This document shows, piece after piece, positions 884 through 28,119 of a stretch of DNA of 28,406 bases (the stretch's first letter is position 1; every line of letters begins with the position of its first letter). The position numbers were made by a program, and so were the translations under genes. This stretch comes from a virus (taxonomy: Duplodnaviria > Caudoviricetes), in IMG/VR virus record IMGVR_UViG_3300012952_000009, positions 1 to 28,406 of that record; one strand, written 5' to 3'. Under the pieces are notes generated by a model. It searched no databases. It was given only the letters and a program-made list of their open reading frames with translations, and was not told where the DNA came from.

Positions 884-1108
884 ATGCCCGATAGAAAAAC
901 CCTCAAAGCGTTCCACCAATATTCGAACCGTGCGCTTGCTGAATATCGGACGAAGACCATTAGGAAGAGCGGCACCGTTACAAGTTATGTCACGATACAA
1001 TTGAATGGTGAGATTGTTTCCTTGATTGATGCGCAAGCCAAAAAGGAAAAGACCAATATAAGCGATTGGATTATCCGCGCATGTCTCGAAAAACTGGATG
1101 AGAAATGA
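884..1108 (+). CDS. Ribbon-helix-helix-type DNA-binding protein
   Basis: VTIQLNGEIVSLIDAQAKKEKTNISDWIIRACLEKL fits the beta-strand/helix/helix pattern of CopG/Arc-type RHH proteins. Confidence 0.7.
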   Translation: MPDRKTLKAFHQYSNRALAEYRTKTIRKSGTVTSYVTIQLNGEIVSLIDAQAKKEKTNISDWIIRACLEKLDEK

Positions 1109-20595: not shown

Positions 20596-20939
20596 TTTTG
20601 CTCCTTGATGATGTTTGATTTGTATTCGTCGATCATTTTCCTGTTTTGGCTAATCAGTATTTCATAGACCGAACGATTGAGGGATGATTTCTTGCTTTTC
20701 CATATCTTGCAAAGCGTCTCGAAATCGCTCCACATGTTCTCATCCCATGTCATGGATTTGATTATGTATTTGTTCTTTTTGCTTCCCGTATTGGTTCCGG
20801 TCTTTGCGTGCCTCCCTTGTTCGGTGAGACCAATCGGAAGATACGCGCCGCAGGATTTGCAAGTTATGCGCTTGGGGAGGATTCCCGTGTATCGAGTAGA
20901 GACCCGGCACTTTGGGTTGATGCATTTGATCTTGTTCAT
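20592..20939 (-). CDS. Zinc-ribbon protein with possible C-terminal RHH-like segment
   Basis: CINPKC..CKSCG followed by IIKSMTWDENMWSDFETLC. Confidence 0.6.
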   Translation of the reverse strand: MNKIKCINPKCRVSTRYTGILPKRITCKSCGAYLPIGLTEQGRHAKTGTNTGSKKNKYIIKSMTWDENMWSDFETLCKIWKSKKSSLNRSVYEILISQNRKMIDEYKSNIIKEQK

Positions 20940-21538: not shown

Positions 21539-21926
21539 GTTTGCTCCATTGAAATGATGTTAGAATTTTGGTTGATAGTGCCAAGATGTGTTTACATGAC
21601 CTCCTTTGTTTTGAAATATTGTTGATTGGTCGAACCCTGAAATTATAAGCCGGGCAGGTACACCATATTGAGTTTTCAGAAATAGAAACCTTGTATAGCG
21701 TGCCCACCATATCCGGAGAGGCAGGAAGAGCCATTCCCGTGAAGGTGTTCGTTCGTTCGTTATAGGTTGCATTTCTGATCTGTACGTCAAGCGCCTTCAT
21801 GTGTTCTTCTGAGCTTGCCGTAAAATAGATCTCATCCGAAAGCCCGATGACTTTCCCGGCTTTTACCGGGAGGTTTTTATTTTTGTTCATCATATCGCAC
21901 TTTTTCAAGAAGTTTTTGGTATTCAT
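21531..21926 (-). CDS. SWIM zinc-finger protein
   Basis: YKV..WCTCPAY..CKHILAL (CxC..CxH). Confidence 0.85.
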   Translation of the reverse strand: MNTKNFLKKCDMMNKNKNLPVKAGKVIGLSDEIYFTASSEEHMKALDVQIRNATYNERTNTFTGMALPASPDMVGTLYKVSISENSIWCTCPAYNFRVRPINNISKQRRSCKHILALSTKILTSFQWSKHV

Positions 21927-22275: not shown

Positions 22276-22568
22276 GAGTACACCAGAGGAGAAGAAAGTC
22301 TTTGGTCTTCAATTCTTGATTGGTACTGATCGATCTTGAAGTTGAGGATGGCATCCTGTATTTTGCCCAGCTCTTTTTTTACGATATAGTTTACTTCCTC
22401 GGCCCATTTTTCAATCTGCTCCCATTCCTGATCGGCATCTTTAGAGTCGGGGTTGATGTCAAAGGCTTGCATCCTATCTTCTATTGGATCGACTCCAAGT
22501 ATGTAGTCGGCCATCTCTTTGTATTCTTCTAATTCTTCGATGTTGGTTGGTATTTCTGGCATTGTCAT
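22272..22568 (-). CDS. Acidic hypothetical protein
   Basis: Start reassigned to ATG 22568 behind AAGGAGCTTAAA. Confidence 0.7.
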   Translation of the reverse strand: MTMPEIPTNIEELEEYKEMADYILGVDPIEDRMQAFDINPDSKDADQEWEQIEKWAEEVNYIVKKELGKIQDAILNFKIDQYQSRIEDQRLSSPLVYS

Positions 22569-22635
22569 TTTAAGCTCCTTGGTGCCCCCTTTAGGGGGCG
22601 GTTGATGTTTATTTGTTTCGGGCAAGAAGTCTGAG

Positions 22636-22713
22636 GGGGAGACCTGGTTTCAACTGTCACCTCCAGCGAACGGCATAGTCATCCTCCTCCAGGGGAGACC
22701 TGGTTTCCACTGT
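22636..22713. repeat. 22-bp direct repeat pair with a 34-bp spacer
   Basis: GGGGAGACCTGGTTTC(A/C)ACTGT at 22636-22657 and 22692-22713, one mismatch. Confidence 0.85.
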
Positions 22714-22928
22714 GGCTGGTTTAGTCCGTTTTCTTGTTCCAGATTCCATTCAAAATTTGCAATTTCTTCCTGTTGAGAATCTGTCAGTCCATCCCATATA
22801 ATGTCGATTACTGGTTCTAATGCTGGTGCGGCTTTGCGTGAAGTAAATTGATATCCAGACCGACATTTAAGCTCGACTAATATTTCGATAAGTGCTTTAA
22901 TTTCTTCCATTCCGTCTTTTGTTTTCAT
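22650..22928 (-). CDS. Hypothetical protein
   Basis: Start reassigned to ATG 22928 behind GGAGCTTAAA, just downstream of a promoter. Confidence 0.7.
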   Translation of the reverse strand: MKTKDGMEEIKALIEILVELKCRSGYQFTSRKAAPALEPVIDIIWDGLTDSQQEEIANFEWNLEQENGLNQPQWKPGLPWRRMTMPFAGGDS

Positions 22929-22949
22929 TTTAAGCTCCGTGGTGTTTGA

Positions 22950-22991
22950 GTCACACATATATTATAGCCTTAAAATAATAGTATAGCAACA
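22950..22991 (-). promoter_or_regulatory. Early sigma70 promoter, copy 1 of a 42-bp duplicated element
   Basis: - strand TTGCTA-17 bp-TATAAT; 40/42 identical to 24376-24417. Confidence 0.85.
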
Positions 22992-23009
22992 AAATAACAC
23001 AATATTCTA

Positions 23010-23309
23010 TTATATTTTTATCCATTCCCGATGCTCTTCAAGAACCATTTGGCGGAACCGACTTGGGGAAACAACGAACAGATCCACAGCGTCTTGGTAG
23101 TCCATCATTAGCAAATCGGCCGACCTCTTGATTTCGTTCTTCGTGTCTTGGTCAATTTGCACCGACTGATATCTTCCAGTTTCCCGGCAACGCTGCTTTT
23201 GATGAATTGGATTTGGGATCTCTTTGTAGCATCGCGCGCAAATGATGGCGGTCCAGTTTTGATGGTAGACCCGGTTAATCTTTCCGCAATCGCATTGTAT
23301 TTTAAACAT
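23010..23309 (-). CDS. Small Cys-motif (zinc) protein with possible RHH-like C-terminus
   Basis: AAGGAG RBS before ATG 23309; CDCG..CARC, then YQSVQIDQDTKNEIKRSA. Confidence 0.65.
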   Translation of the reverse strand: MFKIQCDCGKINRVYHQNWTAIICARCYKEIPNPIHQKQRCRETGRYQSVQIDQDTKNEIKRSADLLMMDYQDAVDLFVVSPSRFRQMVLEEHREWIKI

Positions 23310-23322
23310 GGCTGGCTTCTCC

Positions 23323-23670
23323 TTAGAATGGTATTTCGATGATTGATTTGGTGGCCAGCTCTTCTTTGGTCTGGCCCATTTCATACCCCATGGATTGGTA
23401 CGCTCCATCCAAGGTGGGTTCTTCGTTTGATTGGATGCATTTGACCGCGTACAATTTTGATTGATGATAGAGAGTAAACGCGGATGCGGTCGTATCGTTT
23501 TGCTCGAGTAGAACCCTGTAGACCAGATCGAGACACTTGCCGAAAACCTGACTCCATTCCCTGTCTTCTTTTGCCTCAGCAAGGGAATAGTAGTAACAAT
23601 CCTTTGCGTCTTCGTGTTCCTGGTGTGCCGATTCGAAGATCTCAAAATAGAGTCGAGATGATGCGCTCAT
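23323..23670 (-). CDS. Hypothetical protein
   Basis: GGGAG RBS, ATGA overlap with the HNH gene. Confidence 0.65.
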   Translation of the reverse strand: MSASSRLYFEIFESAHQEHEDAKDCYYYSLAEAKEDREWSQVFGKCLDLVYRVLLEQNDTTASAFTLYHQSKLYAVKCIQSNEEPTLDGAYQSMGYEMGQTKEELATKSIIEIPF

Positions 23671-24032
23671 TTTAAACTCCCAAAAAGTGATAGCTGCTTT
23701 CTTCCGCGGTACATCAGAGCCCGGTCTCCGTCAGGAAGGGAAACAGATGCCTGAGCAAAAGCCTTTTGAGAAATGCGCTTGGGTAAAGCCTTGGTGCCTT
23801 TCTTTGAATTGCAAGATTTGCAGCAAGTTACAAGATTGGTGGATCTGTTGTCTCGAATCCATGATCCATTTTTTTGTATGAGATCACTATCGATATGGTC
23901 AAGTGTAAGAACCACCCCATAGTCATCCCGATGGCATGAACAATAGAAGCAGCGGTAACCATCTCGAAGATAGATTTGAAACCTTCGCTTTACGGCAATC
24001 CACTTCCAGCCGTTGTATCTCTTGCGATCCAT
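23667..24032 (-). CDS. HNH endonuclease
   Basis: RDGYRCFYC..LTLDHI..NLVTCCKSCNSKKG. Confidence 0.92.
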   Translation of the reverse strand: MDRKRYNGWKWIAVKRRFQIYLRDGYRCFYCSCHRDDYGVVLTLDHIDSDLIQKNGSWIRDNRSTNLVTCCKSCNSKKGTKALPKRISQKAFAQASVSLPDGDRALMYRGRKQLSLFGSLK

Positions 24033-24334
24033 TACTCACCCCCTATAACGGCAACGTATTGTTCGCTTGTATGGTCCAGGTTCCAAAGCATGGTACCAAT
24101 CCTTGATGTGTGTACACCGCTACGGGCGTTAGGGCTTAGATTCCAATTAGATCGATCATATGATTCGATTTGTATGAAGGTGCATATTTCTGGATATTGC
24201 TCAGCAGTCTTTACAAGCGCTTTGGCGATGTCTTCTTTGTCTCGAAGTCTCTCAAGAATATCCCTTCGAAGATAGTATTTTGCACGGGTGGAAAGGTTTT
24301 CAAGGAGTATTATAAATGTGTTTTTGTTTTTCAT
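24032..24334 (-). CDS. Hypothetical protein, first gene of the early operon
   Basis: Downstream of the promoter at 24376-24417; TAATG coupling to HNH. Confidence 0.7.
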   Translation of the reverse strand: MKNKNTFIILLENLSTRAKYYLRRDILERLRDKEDIAKALVKTAEQYPEICTFIQIESYDRSNWNLSPNARSGVHTSRIGTMLWNLDHTSEQYVAVIGGE

Positions 24335-24375
24335 GTTTAAGCTCTGGTTTGATGTTTGGAAACCCGTTGTCTTAG

Positions 24376-24417
24376 GTCACACATATAATATAGCCGTAAA
24401 ATAATAGTATAGCAACA
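24376..24417 (-). promoter_or_regulatory. Early sigma70 promoter, copy 2 of the 42-bp element
   Basis: - strand TTGCTA-17 bp-TATATT. Confidence 0.85.
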
Positions 24418-24422
24418 TGCAT

Positions 24423-24451
24423 TTGCGTGATTCATCAAAATAATGTACATT
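24423..24451 (+). promoter_or_regulatory. Divergent sigma70 promoter for sRNA-1
   Basis: TTGCGT-17 bp-TACATT, back-to-back with the early promoter. Confidence 0.6.
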
Positions 24452-24457
24452 TTAATT

Positions 24458-24560
24458 GCGGAACAAATCCGCTCTTTAAATCATTTTTACCGGTGCGGTG
24501 GTAATGGTTTGGGGAAAGGTAGAAAAGTTTGAAAGGTGGCATTTCTTGCCACCTTTTTTT
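24458..24560 (+). ncRNA. Candidate structured small RNA 1 (~103 nt)
   Basis: Hairpin GCGGA/TCCGC (24458-24472), long G-U-containing stem (24473-24515), terminator GGTGGCA/TGCCACC plus T7. Confidence 0.55.
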
Positions 24561-24561
24561 C

Positions 24562-24590
24562 TTGTGTTCTAAAAAAATCCCGGCTATATT
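24562..24590 (+). promoter_or_regulatory. Sigma70 promoter for sRNA-2
   Basis: TTGTGT-17 bp-TATATT; shares CGGCTATATT with the early promoter. Confidence 0.65.
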
Positions 24591-24595
24591 CTTTT

Positions 24596-24658
24596 GGTCA
24601 GGTTTAAGCTCTTGACAATGATGTTTGAGGTGGGTCGTTCCGCGGCCCATCTTTTTTT
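24596..24658 (+). ncRNA. Candidate multi-target antisense small RNA 2 (~62 nt)
   Basis: Own promoter; stem GTCAGG/CTTGAC with loop TTTAAGCT; single-stranded AATGATGTTTGA; terminator GGTGGGTCG/CGGCCCATC plus T7; complementary to several RBS leaders. Confidence 0.7.
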
Positions 24659-24672
24659 ACATACGGGAAGCG

Positions 24673-25074
24673 ATGACAACGAGCATTTTTCAGGACCGGA
24701 ACGAGACGCAGATCACAGGTGTGACAAACTCATTTTCGGTCCTCAAGAAAGCGGAGATGAATCTTGACTTTTCAGTTCGAAGAAGCTTTAGTGGAACCCT
24801 TCGGGGTCTTTGGGTTTTCTTTTCTGGAGCGACGGATTCCCCGACCTCTCTTGAGATAATGATCTCCACAGATACAGGCGGCGATAACATAATCATACCA
24901 TCCACCGCATCGGCGATAACTTCCGGTCTGACTACGGGAACAAGCGGATCGGCTTCATGGGATATCAACATTCCGGTGATTCTATCCGGTGAAGTGATCT
25001 ACGTCTTTATCAAGACGGATACGGGAACGGTGACAGTCGACAAGGTATGGATATCCTGGACGGCTCAATCATGA
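24673..25074 (+). CDS. Beta-rich hypothetical virion protein
   Basis: ATG 24673 behind GGGAAG; Ser/Thr/Gly-rich; first gene of the fibre module. Confidence 0.6.
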   Translation: MTTSIFQDRNETQITGVTNSFSVLKKAEMNLDFSVRRSFSGTLRGLWVFFSGATDSPTSLEIMISTDTGGDNIIIPSTASAITSGLTTGTSGSASWDINIPVILSGEVIYVFIKTDTGTVTVDKVWISWTAQS

Positions 25075-25322
25075 GACGCATATATTCTGCTTCGGGTGGT
25101 TCAGGTCAGCCGGTTATTGCCAAGCGTGATCTTTCGGATCAGATCAACAATGCCAGACAATCATTTTCTCTTCCACCATACCGGAAGGGAACGCTCCTTG
25201 TCTTCCTGAATGGTCTTGCACAAAGTACTAGTGAGATCACGGAAACAAGTCGAACAACATTTGCTACGTCTTTCATCCCGCGGACAGGATCAAACCTATC
25301 CGTCTTTTTCCAACCATTGTAA
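25071..25322 (+). CDS. Small fibre-associated beta-domain protein
   Basis: ATGA overlap; DLSDQIN..FSL..LLVFLNGL motif similar to the C-terminal domain of the next gene. Confidence 0.65.
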   Translation: MRRIYSASGGSGQPVIAKRDLSDQINNARQSFSLPPYRKGTLLVFLNGLAQSTSEITETSRTTFATSFIPRTGSNLSVFFQPL

Positions 25323-25339
25323 ATCAAAGGACATTCTTC

Positions 25340-27178
25340 ATGGCCATTCAAATCATCGCGGATCAGATTAAAAACGCCGCAGTCGAAACAAACAAGCTTG
25401 CCAATTCGGCAGTAACCCCGGGAAAAGCCGATCTATCTCAGGTCTGGGCATTCTCGGCAATCCCAACCATTTCCGGAACCCCGTCATCCGCTACTCAGCT
25501 AGTCAACAAGGAATACGTCGACAACAAGATCAACGGTCTTCATTGGCATGAGTCTGTCCGTGTTCGGAGCGGCGCCAATATTGACATCAGCAGCGCGCCC
25601 GCCGCGATCGATGGTGTAACGATGGCAGCCGGTAACCGCGTTCTGCTTTCCAATCAGTCAAGTGGAAGCCAAGACGGAATCTACGTTTACGCTTCTTCCG
25701 GTGCTGCGATGACACGAGCGGCCGATGCCGATGCATTTGCCGAGCTTCAATCCGCGGCCGTCTTTATCCGTGAGGGAACCAGCGCAAACGAGGGTTATCT
25801 CCAATCCGCCGAGCTTAGCAGCTTCGATAATCAATCCTGGATCATCTTTACCTCCTCCGGTTCCGGTCGTCAAGCGGGTACGGGTCTTTCTCTTTCCTCG
25901 AATACTCTAAACGTAGACTTTGACAATAGCTCAATCGGTGTAAATGGATCGGATGCTCTCGAGATCAAATCGGCCGGTGTTGGCACTGCCCAACTTGCCA
26001 ACGGTGCGGTAACAAATGCCAAGCTTGAAGAAAGCCAGGTAACATTTAATTCCGGATCAGGTCTGACCGGTGGCGGCGCTGTTTCCCTTGGTGGTAGCGC
26101 AACATTTGCAGTTCAGGCGAACGGGTCTACAATTACCGTTGGTGCTGGTGGAATATCCGTTGGAACGATCGGGGCTTCCAATATCGGAGCTAATGCAATT
26201 CAGACCGGCGCTATTTCTGATGCATCCGTAACCCTGGCGAAGCTTGCAAATCTTACGGCTGGAAAGCTTCTTGTTGGTAACGCTTCGAACCGTCCTGCCG
26301 ATGTCACCCCTTCCGGTGATGTCACGATGTCCAATGCCGGCGCTTTTACTGTAGCCAATGGTGCGATCAACGATGCCAAGCTTGCCGGGTCTATCTCAAA
26401 TGCCAAGCTTGCAAATTCCGCGATCACGATTCAGGGTTCCGACGGTGTCGAAGTACCCGGTGGCGCTGTCGCCTTGGGTGGCTCAAAGCAGATCAGTCTA
26501 ACCCTCGATGGATCCAGCCTCTCCAAGAGTGCTTCGGGTCTCAAGGTTAACAATCTTGGAATCGGAACCGCCCAGATTGCTGATTCCGCTATCACTGGTG
26601 TGAAGATTGGGGATGGCGAAGTAGCGAACAACAAGCTTGCATCGGCTACCATTAATGTAGTTGCCGGCAATGGTATCGCGACGACAGACTCTTCTATCGA
26701 TCTTGGTGGAAGCGCTACCCTTTCGGTCAATCTCGATGGTGGCTCTTTGGCTGTTTCCGGTGCTGGTCTCAAGATCTCCGATGATGGTGTTGGCGCTCCT
26801 CAATTGGCTACCAATTCGGTGACCGCGGATGCCATCGCCAATAATGCTGTCGGTGCTGCTGAGCTCGCTGATGACGCGGTTGATTCCGCTGCTCTTGGTT
26901 CGAATTCCGTAATTATCGAGAAGTGTGGTTTCCGTGCCTACTCAGAAAGTTTCTCTGGTACCACCGCCACCAAATACGATCTTGGCCGTGCGGTCAATTC
27001 CAATTTCTTCGATAGGGTTCAGGTTTTCAGGAACGGATTGCGCTGCAAGAAAGTAGCCTCTTCACCTGCTGACTCCTCCGAATACAGTATCGCAAATGAT
27101 GGAACGGGAAGTGTCTGCGCGATCACATTCGGGGCTGCTCCAAATGGAGACCTTATAATTGCCGATTACCTGACGTAA
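25340..27178 (+). CDS. Fibre-like structural protein (head or tail fibre)
   Basis: NKEYVD, IDGV..GNRVLL.NQ....DGIYV domain, repeated AVTxAKL pentads, four AG.GL..LxVxxDxSS modules, C-terminal VFRNGL..ITFGAAP..IADY domain. Confidence 0.8.
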   Translation: MAIQIIADQIKNAAVETNKLANSAVTPGKADLSQVWAFSAIPTISGTPSSATQLVNKEYVDNKINGLHWHESVRVRSGANIDISSAPAAIDGVTMAAGNRVLLSNQSSGSQDGIYVYASSGAAMTRAADADAFAELQSAAVFIREGTSANEGYLQSAELSSFDNQSWIIFTSSGSGRQAGTGLSLSSNTLNVDFDNSSIGVNGSDALEIKSAGVGTAQLANGAVTNAKLEESQVTFNSGSGLTGGGAVSLGGSATFAVQANGSTITVGAGGISVGTIGASNIGANAIQTGAISDASVTLAKLANLTAGKLLVGNASNRPADVTPSGDVTMSNAGAFTVANGAINDAKLAGSISNAKLANSAITIQGSDGVEVPGGAVALGGSKQISLTLDGSSLSKSASGLKVNNLGIGTAQIADSAITGVKIGDGEVANNKLASATINVVAGNGIATTDSSIDLGGSATLSVNLDGGSLAVSGAGLKISDDGVGAPQLATNSVTADAIANNAVGAAELADDAVDSAALGSNSVIIEKCGFRAYSESFSGTTATKYDLGRAVNSNFFDRVQVFRNGLRCKKVASSPADSSEYSIANDGTGSVCAITFGAAPNGDLIIADYLT

Positions 27179-27200
27179 TCTTCCCTTATTTCAGGTTTCT

Positions 27201-27240
27201 AAGCCCGGCCCATGTTCTATGGTGTCCGGGCTTTCTTTTT
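27201..27240 (+). terminator. Intrinsic terminator after the fibre module
   Basis: AAGCCCGG/CCGGGCTT stem with inner CCAT/ATGG, followed by TCTTTTT. Confidence 0.7.
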
Positions 27241-27402
27241 ACAATTTTGATTTGCTTTTCGATCGCAAAACGCGTTAGGTTTTTACATAGGTAAATTATT
27301 TCTATGGAAACTTTGAAATAGTTTTTCTATGAATGATAATAAATATATGAATGAAATATTAATTTCTATTATCATTAAACATCAAACCAAAGAGCTTATG
27401 AT

Positions 27403-28119
27403 ATGTTGAATCTTACAACACCAGAGTTGTATAAATTAACGATGGAGGAACGCCTCTTCGTTCATCTCTATAATAAATGGGGCATGCGATCATCCGGTGA
27501 CCCGATCGAACAATTCCGGCAAATCAAGAACCCCCAAGGGTTAAACGTTCCCTTTGAATTGAATGCTATTGACGAGTACCTTGAGAAGAAATTCCCCGGT
27601 GGGTATGAGTGGCCGATTGATTCCTGGGTAGCATGGATCGGGAGGTGGTTAAAAAATACCAAGCGGAAGAAAGCAAGTGAGGCGGACCCGCTCCAAAGAC
27701 CTTTCTACGAGATAATGTGGGATCACTATCTCAAATGCACCAAGTTCACGATACGGGAGGAACCATTTCGATCCAAGTATGAGCGCATATGGAATATCCT
27801 GACCGATGGAATAGAGACCAGGGTGAAGCATAATGCCTATTGTGGCTCACAGGAAAACAGGGATTTCACCGAGGTCTTTCTCCACCAATACCAATTGATT
27901 GTCAATGGTCATTCATTGTATGACGAATTGGACGCGCGGATAGTTCGCCTCATCTCAGCCGGCTACTTTGAAGATGAAGCCTTCATGCTCTACCTTGGAA
28001 GATTTGCATCTGATCTACTTCGTTGGGTTCTCGATCTTAAGTACGGCCCCGAATACGATAAATGCTATCAGAAAGGAGATATGGCTTTTGATGGACGAAG
28101 GAACAGGGGGGAGGTATGA
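27403..28119 (+). CDS. Hypothetical protein, possible replication initiator
   Basis: DSWVAWIGRWLKN resembles the W.A....WL.N motif of phage initiator C-terminal domains; follows an AT-rich repeat region. Confidence 0.4.
   Translation: MLNLTTPELYKLTMEERLFVHLYNKWGMRSSGDPIEQFRQIKNPQGLNVPFELNAIDEYLEKKFPGGYEWPIDSWVAWIGRWLKNTKRKKASEADPLQRPFYEIMWDHYLKCTKFTIREEPFRSKYERIWNILTDGIETRVKHNAYCGSQENRDFTEVFLHQYQLIVNGHSLYDELDARIVRLISAGYFEDEAFMLYLGRFASDLLRWVLDLKYGPEYDKCYQKGDMAFDGRRNRGEV

What the first reader, a model, noticed from the sequence alone, without database searches (positions are those of the whole stretch)
24562..24658. Candidate ~62-nt phage sRNA antisense to the ribosome-binding leaders of 6-7 early and replication genes
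Seen: a self-contained + strand unit with promoter TTGTGT-17-TATATT, a stem GTCAGG/CTTGAC presenting loop TTTAAGCT (box A), single-stranded AATGATGTTTGA (box B), and an intrinsic terminator with T7. Complements of both boxes sit in mRNA-sense orientation just before start codons. Gene 24334(-): 11 nt at 24335-45 plus 9 nt at 24350-58. Gene 22928(-): 9 nt at 22929-37 plus 10/11 at 22940-50. Gene 22568(-): 9 nt at 22569-77 plus 8 nt at 22603-10. Gene 27403(+): 8 nt at 27377-84 plus 9 nt at 27390-98. Gene 20595(-): box B 11/11 at 20608-18 plus GCTC. erf 21538(-): box B 9 nt at 21553-61 plus GCTC. Gene 23670(-): box A only, with one G-U, at 23671-79. Box A covers the Shine-Dalgarno GAG. The 24602-24629 copy is the only one not followed by an ATG and the only one predicted to be transcribed antisense. 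Known: P1/P7 C4 and P4 CI RNAs use two-box antisense pairing, but against one neighbouring operon. Inference: a single trans-acting RNA silences translation across a dispersed regulon on both strands. It could be an RNA-only immunity or early-to-late switch in a phage with no recognisable CI.
Basis: partly seen in the sequence, partly recalled or inferred. Interest (0 to 1): 0.92.

Follow-up and report, generated by a model that had tools for sequence, protein, structure and literature searches.

The report
Phage RNA silencing its early genes
An uncultured phage carries a 63-base stretch that is complementary to the ribosome-landing sites of six of its own non-structural genes, and because this match changes in step across related phages, the stretch is likely made as a small RNA that would switch those genes off together.

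Summary
The window is a whole circular 28.3-kb siphovirus-like genome. Unit 24596-24658 has a weak sigma-70-type promoter, a 6-bp hairpin, a single-stranded box and a terminator. It is predicted to pair best with leaders 24334, 20595, 27403, 21538, 22568 and 22928 (top 6 of 37); 23670 is weak. Related phages carry the same architecture at the same place with different boxes, and each unit fits its own phage's leaders. For the leader of one orthologous gene, the cognate unit binds best in 5 of 6 families. Tagged leaders are 36 of 110 non-structural against 2 of 55 late genes. Family F5 fails most tests, and the window's own shuffle controls are modest (8 of 200; 32 of 60). Best reading: a trans-acting antisense RNA that blocks translation of a dispersed early regulon (0.75). 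Timer versus immunity is open. No transcript evidence, no Rfam match, host unknown, and 'replication gene' is not shown for 27403. It works like P1 c4 and P4 CI but is neither. Earlier AI notes of this scan describe the same kind of element in other phages, none in this genome or look-alikes.

The parts
24562..24590 (+). Predicted sigma-70-type promoter of the unit (TTGTGT, 17 nt, TATATT)
   Evidence: Sequence; both hexamers kept in L029; 8 of 12 consensus bases, not listed by the scan
24596..24658 (+). Predicted 63-nt antisense RNA (start site inferred from the -10 box)
   Evidence: Fold z -3.87; same architecture upstream of the same gene in six to seven sequence families
24597..24616 (+). 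5' hairpin; loop 24603-24610 is box A, complementary to the Shine-Dalgarno to start-codon stretch of target leaders
   Evidence: stem shortened on both sides in L029 with the loop unchanged
24617..24626 (+). Single-stranded box B, complementary to the A-rich stretch upstream of the Shine-Dalgarno in target leaders
24627..24658 (+). Intrinsic-terminator-like hairpin with T run; 14 nt before the start of gene 24673
24335..24358 (-). Target leader of gene 24334 (both boxes); best predicted target
   Evidence: (-18.8 kcal/mol, rank 1 of 37)
22929..22950 (-). Target leader of gene 22928 (both boxes), 26 nt from its predicted start site
   Evidence: -10.8 from the predicted start site, rank 6 of 37; rank 25 when untranscribed upstream DNA is included
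22569..22610 (-). Target leader of gene 22568; the boxes flank a 7-bp hairpin that brings them together in RNA
   Evidence: -17.8, rank 2; same layout in L029 gene 2128
21542..21561 (-). Target leader of the Erf-family recombinase gene 21538
   Evidence: -12.1, rank 5; Erf by PHROG and Pfam
20599..20618 (-). Target leader of gene 20595
   Evidence: -14.3, rank 3
23671..23679 (-). Weak possible target: box A only, one G-U, gene 23670
   Evidence: Rank 9 to 11 of 37; same variant in L029 gene 1458
27377..27398 (+). Target leader of gene 27403 (238 aa, conserved in families F1-F6, function unknown)
   Evidence: -12.6, rank 4; orthologous leaders track the cognate unit in 5 of 6 families
22950..22991 (-). 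Early promoter copy 1 (42-nt repeat)
   Evidence: family D4
24376..24417 (-). Early promoter copy 2 (95% identical repeat)
   Evidence: family D4
24673..25074 (+). 133-aa conserved gene directly downstream; used as the synteny anchor; first of three genes ending in a 612-aa virion-type protein

Best explanation
The unit at 24596-24658 is likely the gene of a 63-nt RNA whose exposed loop and single-stranded box are complementary to the ribosome-binding leaders of six of the phage's own non-structural genes, and it is predicted to pair with them in trans and block their translation together. Shown: the complementarity, its restriction to non-structural genes, and its co-change across related phages. 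Inferred: transcription by host polymerase from the start of infection; first contact through box B or the loop, opening of the 6-bp stem and a duplex across Shine-Dalgarno and start codon; repression by ribosome occlusion. For the role I commit to a delayed shut-off: the stable RNA would build up, overtake the early mRNAs and end early protein synthesis without a protein repressor (about 0.45 of the 0.75), with blocking of superinfecting phage of the same box type as a likely side effect.
For: Window: top 5 of 37 curated leaders by co-folding are 24334, 22568, 20595, 27403, 21538; top 6 with short leaders adds 22928; early set versus rest p=0.007 with the own unit, 0.0015 with the L029 unit, 0.06-0.53 with six foreign units. 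Relatives: the architecture sits upstream of the same gene in 22 of 52 loci with that gene (by eye, several loci are the same or near-identical contigs), in six families too different to align, each folding into hairpin, free box and terminator behind promoter-like hexamers. Leader of the 27403 ortholog: cognate unit best in F1, F2, F3, F4 and F6. Cross matrix of 15 units by 15 loci: own locus ranks first for W, L041, L033, L040, L077, L082, L235, L225. Blind 8-mer test: a top-six leader 8-mer is complementary to the own family's unit in 9 of 10 loci. Tagged leaders: 36 of 110 non-late, 2 of 55 late genes, Fisher p=6e-6. In F2 and F3 the early genes lie on the unit's own strand, so the unit is inverted in DNA relative to every tagged leader. 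Box spacing in targets is 2, 4, 5 or 25 nt, the last bridged by a hairpin.
Against: No transcript, no reporter, host unknown. Shuffle controls for the window are modest: 8 of 200 and 32 of 60. F5 (L077) fails the shuffle tests (183 of 200; 60 of 60) and the ortholog test (-7.5 against -12.2 for a foreign unit), and leads the cross matrix by only 0.4 kcal/mol; its boxes are low-complexity and also match F3 and F4 leaders. L029 fails one shuffle test (98 of 200, 10 called genes). In F6 the L082 leader is bound nearly as well by the F3 unit (-16.0 against -16.3 and -17.8). Candidates L214 (rank 11 of 15), L213 (4) and L241 (3) do not prefer their own leaders. 30 of 52 loci with the anchor gene show no unit upstream. 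Within F1 the fit is not tight: the leaders of 24334 and 27403 match the L029 box B over more bases than the window's own. The -10 kcal/mol cut was set after seeing the data and gene calls were crude.
Confidence: 0.75

Rival explanations
1. Same pairing mechanism, different role: the RNA is an RNA-only immunity factor that holds a non-integrated, quiescent phage genome silent and excludes phages with the same boxes; box divergence marks heteroimmune groups. (Shares the 0.75 with the best explanation.)
For: Boxes are entirely different between phages whose 612-aa protein is 77% identical, although a change needs matching changes in several leaders, which suggests selection for new specificities. 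No CI-like repressor recognised. P4 CI and P1 c4 act in lysogeny (passages).
Against: No integrase or ParA-type partition gene in the complete window genome, and no integrase among 103 selected proteins of partial relatives, so no sign of a lysogenic state. If 27403 is needed for replication, silencing it would not suit a plasmid-like state.
Confidence: 0.3
2. The unit is mainly the terminated leader of the downstream late genes (like lambda pR' with its short RNA, recalled), and the complementarity is secondary or lets early mRNAs tune read-through.
For: Only 14 nt separate the terminator from gene 24673, with no room for a promoter, and the unit sits there in F1-F7, so those genes need read-through. 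Giant Pseudomonas phages have conserved 5'UTR-derived sRNAs before a tail gene (PMC11512511, passages).
Against: In the co-folds of six of seven leaders most of the terminator stem stays formed (the 23670 fold disrupts it); no alternative antiterminator fold. Candidate units in L240, L241, L209 and L211 lie elsewhere, and L240/L241 have none before the anchor gene. A leader role does not explain tracking of distant leaders.
Confidence: 0.1
3. The boxes are DNA operators or protein-binding sites on mRNA for a phage protein, and the inverted copy is one more operator at this promoter.
For: In genes 22928 and 24334 the boxes lie just downstream of a duplicated promoter; gene 884 has weak hits to small DNA-binding families; the inverted copy starts at +8 of its own promoter.
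Against: Sites are tied to start codons, also inside operons; spacing between boxes has no helical phase and is once bridged by a hairpin; sites are asymmetric; the single inverted copy is always displayed in an RNA fold whose stem changes on both sides. A decoy for an RNA-binding protein would carry the sense, not the complement.
Confidence: 0.06
4. No function: an inverted leftover leader, or a U-rich stretch before a terminator that matches A-rich leaders by composition.
For: Such false positives exist in my own screen: L185 2873, L208 3178, L241 2078, L211 1624, L235 4805. In the window the unit has the same DNA orientation as the minus-strand leaders. F5 behaves like a generic anti-Shine-Dalgarno.
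Against: Family-specific preference; own promoter and hairpin in each family; inverted orientation in F2 and F3; boxes and 5' hairpin kept between L077 and L208 while the flanks differ.
Confidence: 0.05
5. The RNA mainly targets host mRNAs through its anti-Shine-Dalgarno-like boxes, as lambda PreS does, and the phage leaders act as sponges or secondary targets.
For: Phage sRNAs with host targets are known (bioRxiv 10.1101/2024.10.31.621285, passages).
Against: Fast box turnover that follows phage leaders is not expected if fixed host mRNAs were the targets. Host unknown, so not tested.
Confidence: 0.04

Closest known systems
c4 antisense RNA of phages P1 and P7 (Rfam RF01695)
   Same: Short phage RNA that represses phage genes by pairing (PMC8198154, passages); two short boxes and specificity changes between sister phages (recalled).
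   Different: No Rfam match. c4 lies in the operon it controls (c4-icd-ant) and backs up the C1 protein; here the targets are six or more separate leaders on both strands and no icd, ant or C1 was recognised.
CI RNA of satellite phage P4
   Same: Small RNA that shuts down early and replication functions without a protein repressor (PMC4825925, passages).
   Different: CI is processed from the transcript it controls and pairs with seqA and seqC on either side to cause termination; this unit looks like a primary transcript and covers ribosome-binding sites of distant genes.
Start-associated sequences (SAS) of cluster K mycobacteriophages
   Same: A private motif over the Shine-Dalgarno of non-structural genes, role unknown; four K1 phages have one copy in the opposite orientation with no gene (PMC3203893, passages; still unexplained in PMC11373665 and PMC12699233, passages).
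   Different: Unrelated sequence (0 matches). In three right arms checked, a free reverse copy was present in Anaya only; Pixie had none and ZoeJ's is the sense SAS of a leftward gene. No co-varying RNA has been described there in the passages I saw.
Trans-acting multi-target sRNAs, including phage-encoded PreS (lambda) and VpdS (VP882)
   Same: Short RNA, exposed seed, U-tailed terminator, many targets (passages).
   Different: PreS targets are mainly host genes and VpdS regulates host and phage mRNAs; here the predicted targets are the phage's own tagged early class, and seed and tags are rewritten together between lineages.
T4 RegA and RegB control of early mRNAs (recalled, no call)
   Same: Shut-off of early gene translation at the ribosome-binding region.
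   Different: Those are proteins; here the predicted effector is an RNA.

Membership tests
c4 antisense RNA (RF01695) | Match to the Rfam covariance model | tested here: not met
   No c4 hit up to E 5 in the window or up to E 1 in seven related loci
c4 antisense RNA (RF01695) | Encoded in the operon of its targets icd and ant | tested here: not met
   Downstream genes are the 133-, 83- and 612-aa virion-type genes; targets are dispersed; definition from PMC8198154 passages
c4 antisense RNA (RF01695) | Two short boxes pair with two sites of the target (recalled) | tested here: met
   Predicted two-box duplexes for six leaders; prediction only
c4 antisense RNA (RF01695) | Matured from a precursor by RNase P (recalled) | not testable with these tools
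   No reads; the unit has its own promoter and terminator
P4 CI RNA | Processed from a leader and pairs with seqA and seqC on both sides to cause termination | tested here: not met
   No complementary box copy within the unit's own predicted transcript or just downstream; definition from PMC4825925 passages
Trans-acting base-pairing sRNA | Own promoter, unpaired seed, intrinsic terminator | tested here: met
   promoter predicted only
Trans-acting base-pairing sRNA | Seed complementary to several unlinked leaders, with co-variation | tested here: met
   5 of 6 families in the ortholog test
Trans-acting base-pairing sRNA | Discrete transcript that represses targets; chaperone dependence | not testable with these tools
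   Needs reads or reporters
Cluster K SAS elements | 13-bp SAS consensus | tested here: not met
   0 matches with up to 2 mismatches
Cluster K SAS elements | Asymmetric motif over the ribosome-binding site of non-structural genes | tested here: met
   (36 of 110 against 2 of 55)
Lambda pR'-type terminated late leader (recalled) | Promoter, short RNA and terminator directly before late genes | tested here: met
   F1-F7; not in L240 and L241
Lambda pR'-type terminated late leader (recalled) | Q-like antiterminator gene | tested here: inconclusive
   None named by PHROGs or Pfam; many genes have no family
Phage replication initiator or loader (gene 27403) | Sequence or fold match to a known replication protein | tested here: inconclusive
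   No PHROG, Pfam, Atlas or Foldseek match; best structural Z 4.4, with DnaD, DnaT and G39P domains at Z 3.2-3.4, within noise

The most novel reading that the evidence does not exclude
A whole clade of small tailed phages controls its early regulon with an RNA address code: each lineage writes a private tag over the ribosome-binding sites of its early genes and encodes one small RNA that reads it, replacing a protein repressor. Rewriting tag and RNA together creates heteroimmune groups, and the same logic may explain orphan start-associated motifs in other phages.
Probability: 0.3. Interest if true: 0.9.

Novelty: new variant of a known kind. Interest (0 to 1): 0.78.

Why it matters
The phage antisense RNAs in the passages I read (c4, CI, OOP) each control one neighbouring operon. 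One RNA acting as master translational repressor of a dispersed early regulon would be a regulatory layer that protein-centred annotation misses, and one that Rfam-style searches also miss because only the architecture is conserved. The six or seven natural RNA-leader sets give a ready cognate versus non-cognate test in a laboratory strain and could serve as orthogonal repressors. It also offers a testable model for start-associated motifs unexplained since 2011, although my check of cluster K was equivocal.

Tried and rejected
No RNA holder was listed for 22400-27600; this is no evidence either way, and no reads could be laid. Megablast against cultured phages: no match; terminase best 28% and anchor gene no match, so no host. 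The one genome hit (L084, 33%) has no unit and says nothing on the host. The two-box pattern gave 20 viral loci, none followed by a terminator or preceded by a start codon in antisense: chance. Duplex energy over all ATG contexts was too noisy. MAFFT did not align the families in register, so no covariance model or pair count was made across families. The blind terminator screen (166 loci, 77 candidates, 24 with 4 or more own leaders hit, against 48 of 1528 foreign pairs that include close relatives) missed the window's unit and L082, counts repeated contigs, and gave at least five false positives; I used it only to find candidates. The minus-strand ORF 24435-24650 over the unit is not kept in L029 (longest 29 aa). 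Gene 27403: no known fold found (model pLDDT 76, pTM 0.50); the C-terminal part was barely tested. pLS20 establishment sequences (PMC8708921, passages) are 400-750 bp repeats with no RNA regulator in the passages seen: not a close parallel. L187 was seen as a possible unit and not tested.

Full report
Setting. The window is one contig with a 123-nt terminal repeat, so it is a complete circular genome of about 28.3 kb. PHROGs and Pfam name methylases, terminase, portal, head, tail and amidase genes on the + strand, and an Erf recombinase and an HNH nuclease in a block of small minus-strand genes. No integrase or CI-like repressor was named among the 38 and 24 proteins scanned. No cultured phage is close and the host is unknown.

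The observation. The unit folds into a 6-bp hairpin with an 8-nt loop, ten free bases and a terminator. The promoter is weak by consensus and was not listed by the scan. One further exact box A lies inside gene 22928. When the full unit is co-folded with 37 curated leaders, the best five are 24334, 22568, 20595, 27403 and 21538. Gene 22928 ranks 25th there because the 50-nt window includes DNA upstream of its predicted start site; from that site it binds at -10.8 kcal/mol and with 26-nt leaders it ranks 6th (10th with 42-nt leaders). Gene 23670 ranks 9th to 11th. One start was set 3 nt off and corrected. Shuffle controls for the window alone are modest: 8 of 200 over called genes and 32 of 60 over all ATG contexts.

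Relatives. I used the 133-aa gene at 24673 as an anchor. Of 56 loci examined, 52 hold it, and 22 of these show, by eye, promoter-like hexamers, a small hairpin, a U-rich free stretch and a terminator just upstream; the other 30, all more distant, do not. Several of the 22 are the same or near-identical contigs; they form six sequence families: F1 (window, L029), F2 (L005/L041, L030), F3 (L033, L043, L044, L042 and near-copies), F4 (L040, L038, L039), F5 (L077; also L208) and F6 (L082, L083). F2 to F6 were picked by position, not by match. A later screen added F7 (L235, L225), also upstream of the anchor gene, but picked by match. All fold alike yet cannot be aligned across families, so homology between families rests on position and architecture.

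Co-variation. The cleanest test uses one orthologous gene, 27403, present in F1-F6. Its leader is bound best by the cognate unit in F1 (-12.2, next -4.4), F2 (-17.5, next -10.1), F3 (-23.1, next -11.7), F4 (-13.0, next -6.5) and F6 (L083 leader -21.8 and -18.4, next -10.6; L082 leader -17.8 and -16.3, next -16.0). F5 fails (-7.5 against -12.2). In a matrix of 15 units by 15 loci the own locus ranks first for W, L041, L033, L040, L077, L082, L235 and L225, second for L208, L240, L209 and L211, third for L241, fourth for L213 and eleventh for L214. Shuffled-RNA controls over called genes gave 0, 0, 0, 0, 1, 1, 4 and 8 of 200 for L041, L033, L043, L044, L040, L082, L083 and W, but 98 for L029 and 183 for L077. 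A blind count of leader 8-mers found a top-six word complementary to the own family's unit in 9 of 10 loci (not L040); foreign units also matched in four loci, mostly the low-complexity F5 box. With one locus per family F2-F7, leaders bound at -10 kcal/mol or better were 36 of 110 non-late genes and 2 of 55 homologs of the window's late genes (cut-off chosen after seeing data, crude gene calls).

RNA or DNA. In F2 and F3 the early genes lie on the same strand as the unit, so the unit is inverted against every tagged leader and cannot be a leftover leader of that block. Tagged genes lie on both strands in the window, L040, L082 and L235. The gap between boxes in window targets is 2, 4, 5 or 25 nt, and the long one is closed by a hairpin, as in L029 and L083. 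The sites follow start codons, not promoters. These points fit RNA pairing and fit a DNA operator poorly.

Mechanism. Shown: complementarity, class restriction, co-change. Inferred: host polymerase makes the RNA from the start of infection; the free box or loop nucleates pairing, the short stem opens, and the duplex covers Shine-Dalgarno and start codon (predicted structures), so ribosomes are excluded. I give this 0.75. For the role I favour a delayed shut-off of early translation, because neither the complete genome nor 103 selected proteins of partial relatives showed an integrase. Immunity is the close second: boxes are wholly rewritten between phages with 77% identity in the 612-aa protein, which is easier to explain by selection for new specificities. 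The unit also sits 14 nt before gene 24673, so the three downstream genes need read-through; it may double as a terminated late leader. Candidate units away from that gene in L240, L241, L209 and L211 suggest that the position is not essential, but they are weaker cases. In L240 a 377-aa helix-turn-helix (HTH_36) gene carries the common leader motif, the only hint of a replication-type target; for 27403 nothing was established.

Comparison with what is known. There is no Rfam match. It works like P1 c4 and P4 CI in using a short phage RNA against phage genes, but fails their defining features (PMC8198154 and PMC4825925, passages; PMC2864571, passages, for the Rfam family). Lambda PreS mainly targets host genes (bioRxiv 10.1101/2024.10.31.621285, passages). 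Cluster K SAS motifs resemble the target side, and four K1 phages have one reverse copy (PMC3203893, passages; PMC11373665 and PMC12699233, passages). In the right arms of three cluster K genomes I found a free reverse copy only in Anaya, so that link is unproven; the supplementary figure listing the other reverse copies was not read. Nine literature searches listed no paper describing one phage RNA against many of its own early leaders; the library lacks most subscription journals, so this is not proof of absence. The two-box detail of c4, its RNase P processing, lambda pR' and T4 RegA/RegB are recalled.

Earlier notes. A word search returned 48 AI notes of this scan, of which the 8 shown describe similar anti-leader RNAs in other phage genomes; none covers this genome, its look-alikes or the F3 unit. 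They are unchecked and I do not count them as support. My reading and the SAS lead were fixed before that call.

Verdict. A real and well-supported candidate, new as a variant of phage antisense control, not a member of a described family, and untested at the bench. Interest 0.78.

Noticed in passing
window 24458-24562 (+): A second candidate small RNA directly upstream: conserved -10 box at 24447-24452, three hairpins, fold z -6.5, own terminator whose T run abuts the -35 of the main unit. Found only in L029; no good pairing with window leaders (best -7.2) or with the main unit.
   Followed up: partly
window 22950-22991 and 24376-24417: A 42-nt early promoter is duplicated at 95% identity; a related stretch starts the early block of L005 in the opposite orientation.
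   Followed up: partly
window 22866-22874: An exact box A inside gene 22928, followed by an out-of-frame ATG on the minus strand.
   Followed up: no
L085:31871 (phage Anaya, between genes 96 and 97): A free reverse-orientation SAS copy with one mismatch; none in the right arm of Pixie, and ZoeJ's is the sense SAS of leftward gene 40.
   Followed up: partly
L225:4475 leader and unit 1551-1614: The F7 unit of L225 has an unusually long match, through its hairpin, to one small gene's leader (duplex -38 kcal/mol), absent from the sister unit in L235.
   Followed up: no
L077:8956, L082:1815, L083:6127: In F5 and F6 the 27403 ortholog is transcribed divergently, directly next to the unit.
   Followed up: no
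L243, L054, L196, L215, L175: Relatives with strong shared leader motifs (up to 13 leaders in L243) but no free antisense copy before a terminator in the part held; the loci are partial.
   Followed up: no
window 22636-22657 and 22692-22713: A 22-nt direct repeat at 95% identity inside the end of gene 22928.
   Followed up: no
window 884-1108 (+): 74-aa gene with weak hits to NikA-like and DUF6290 families, below cut-off: a possible small DNA-binding regulator.
   Followed up: no
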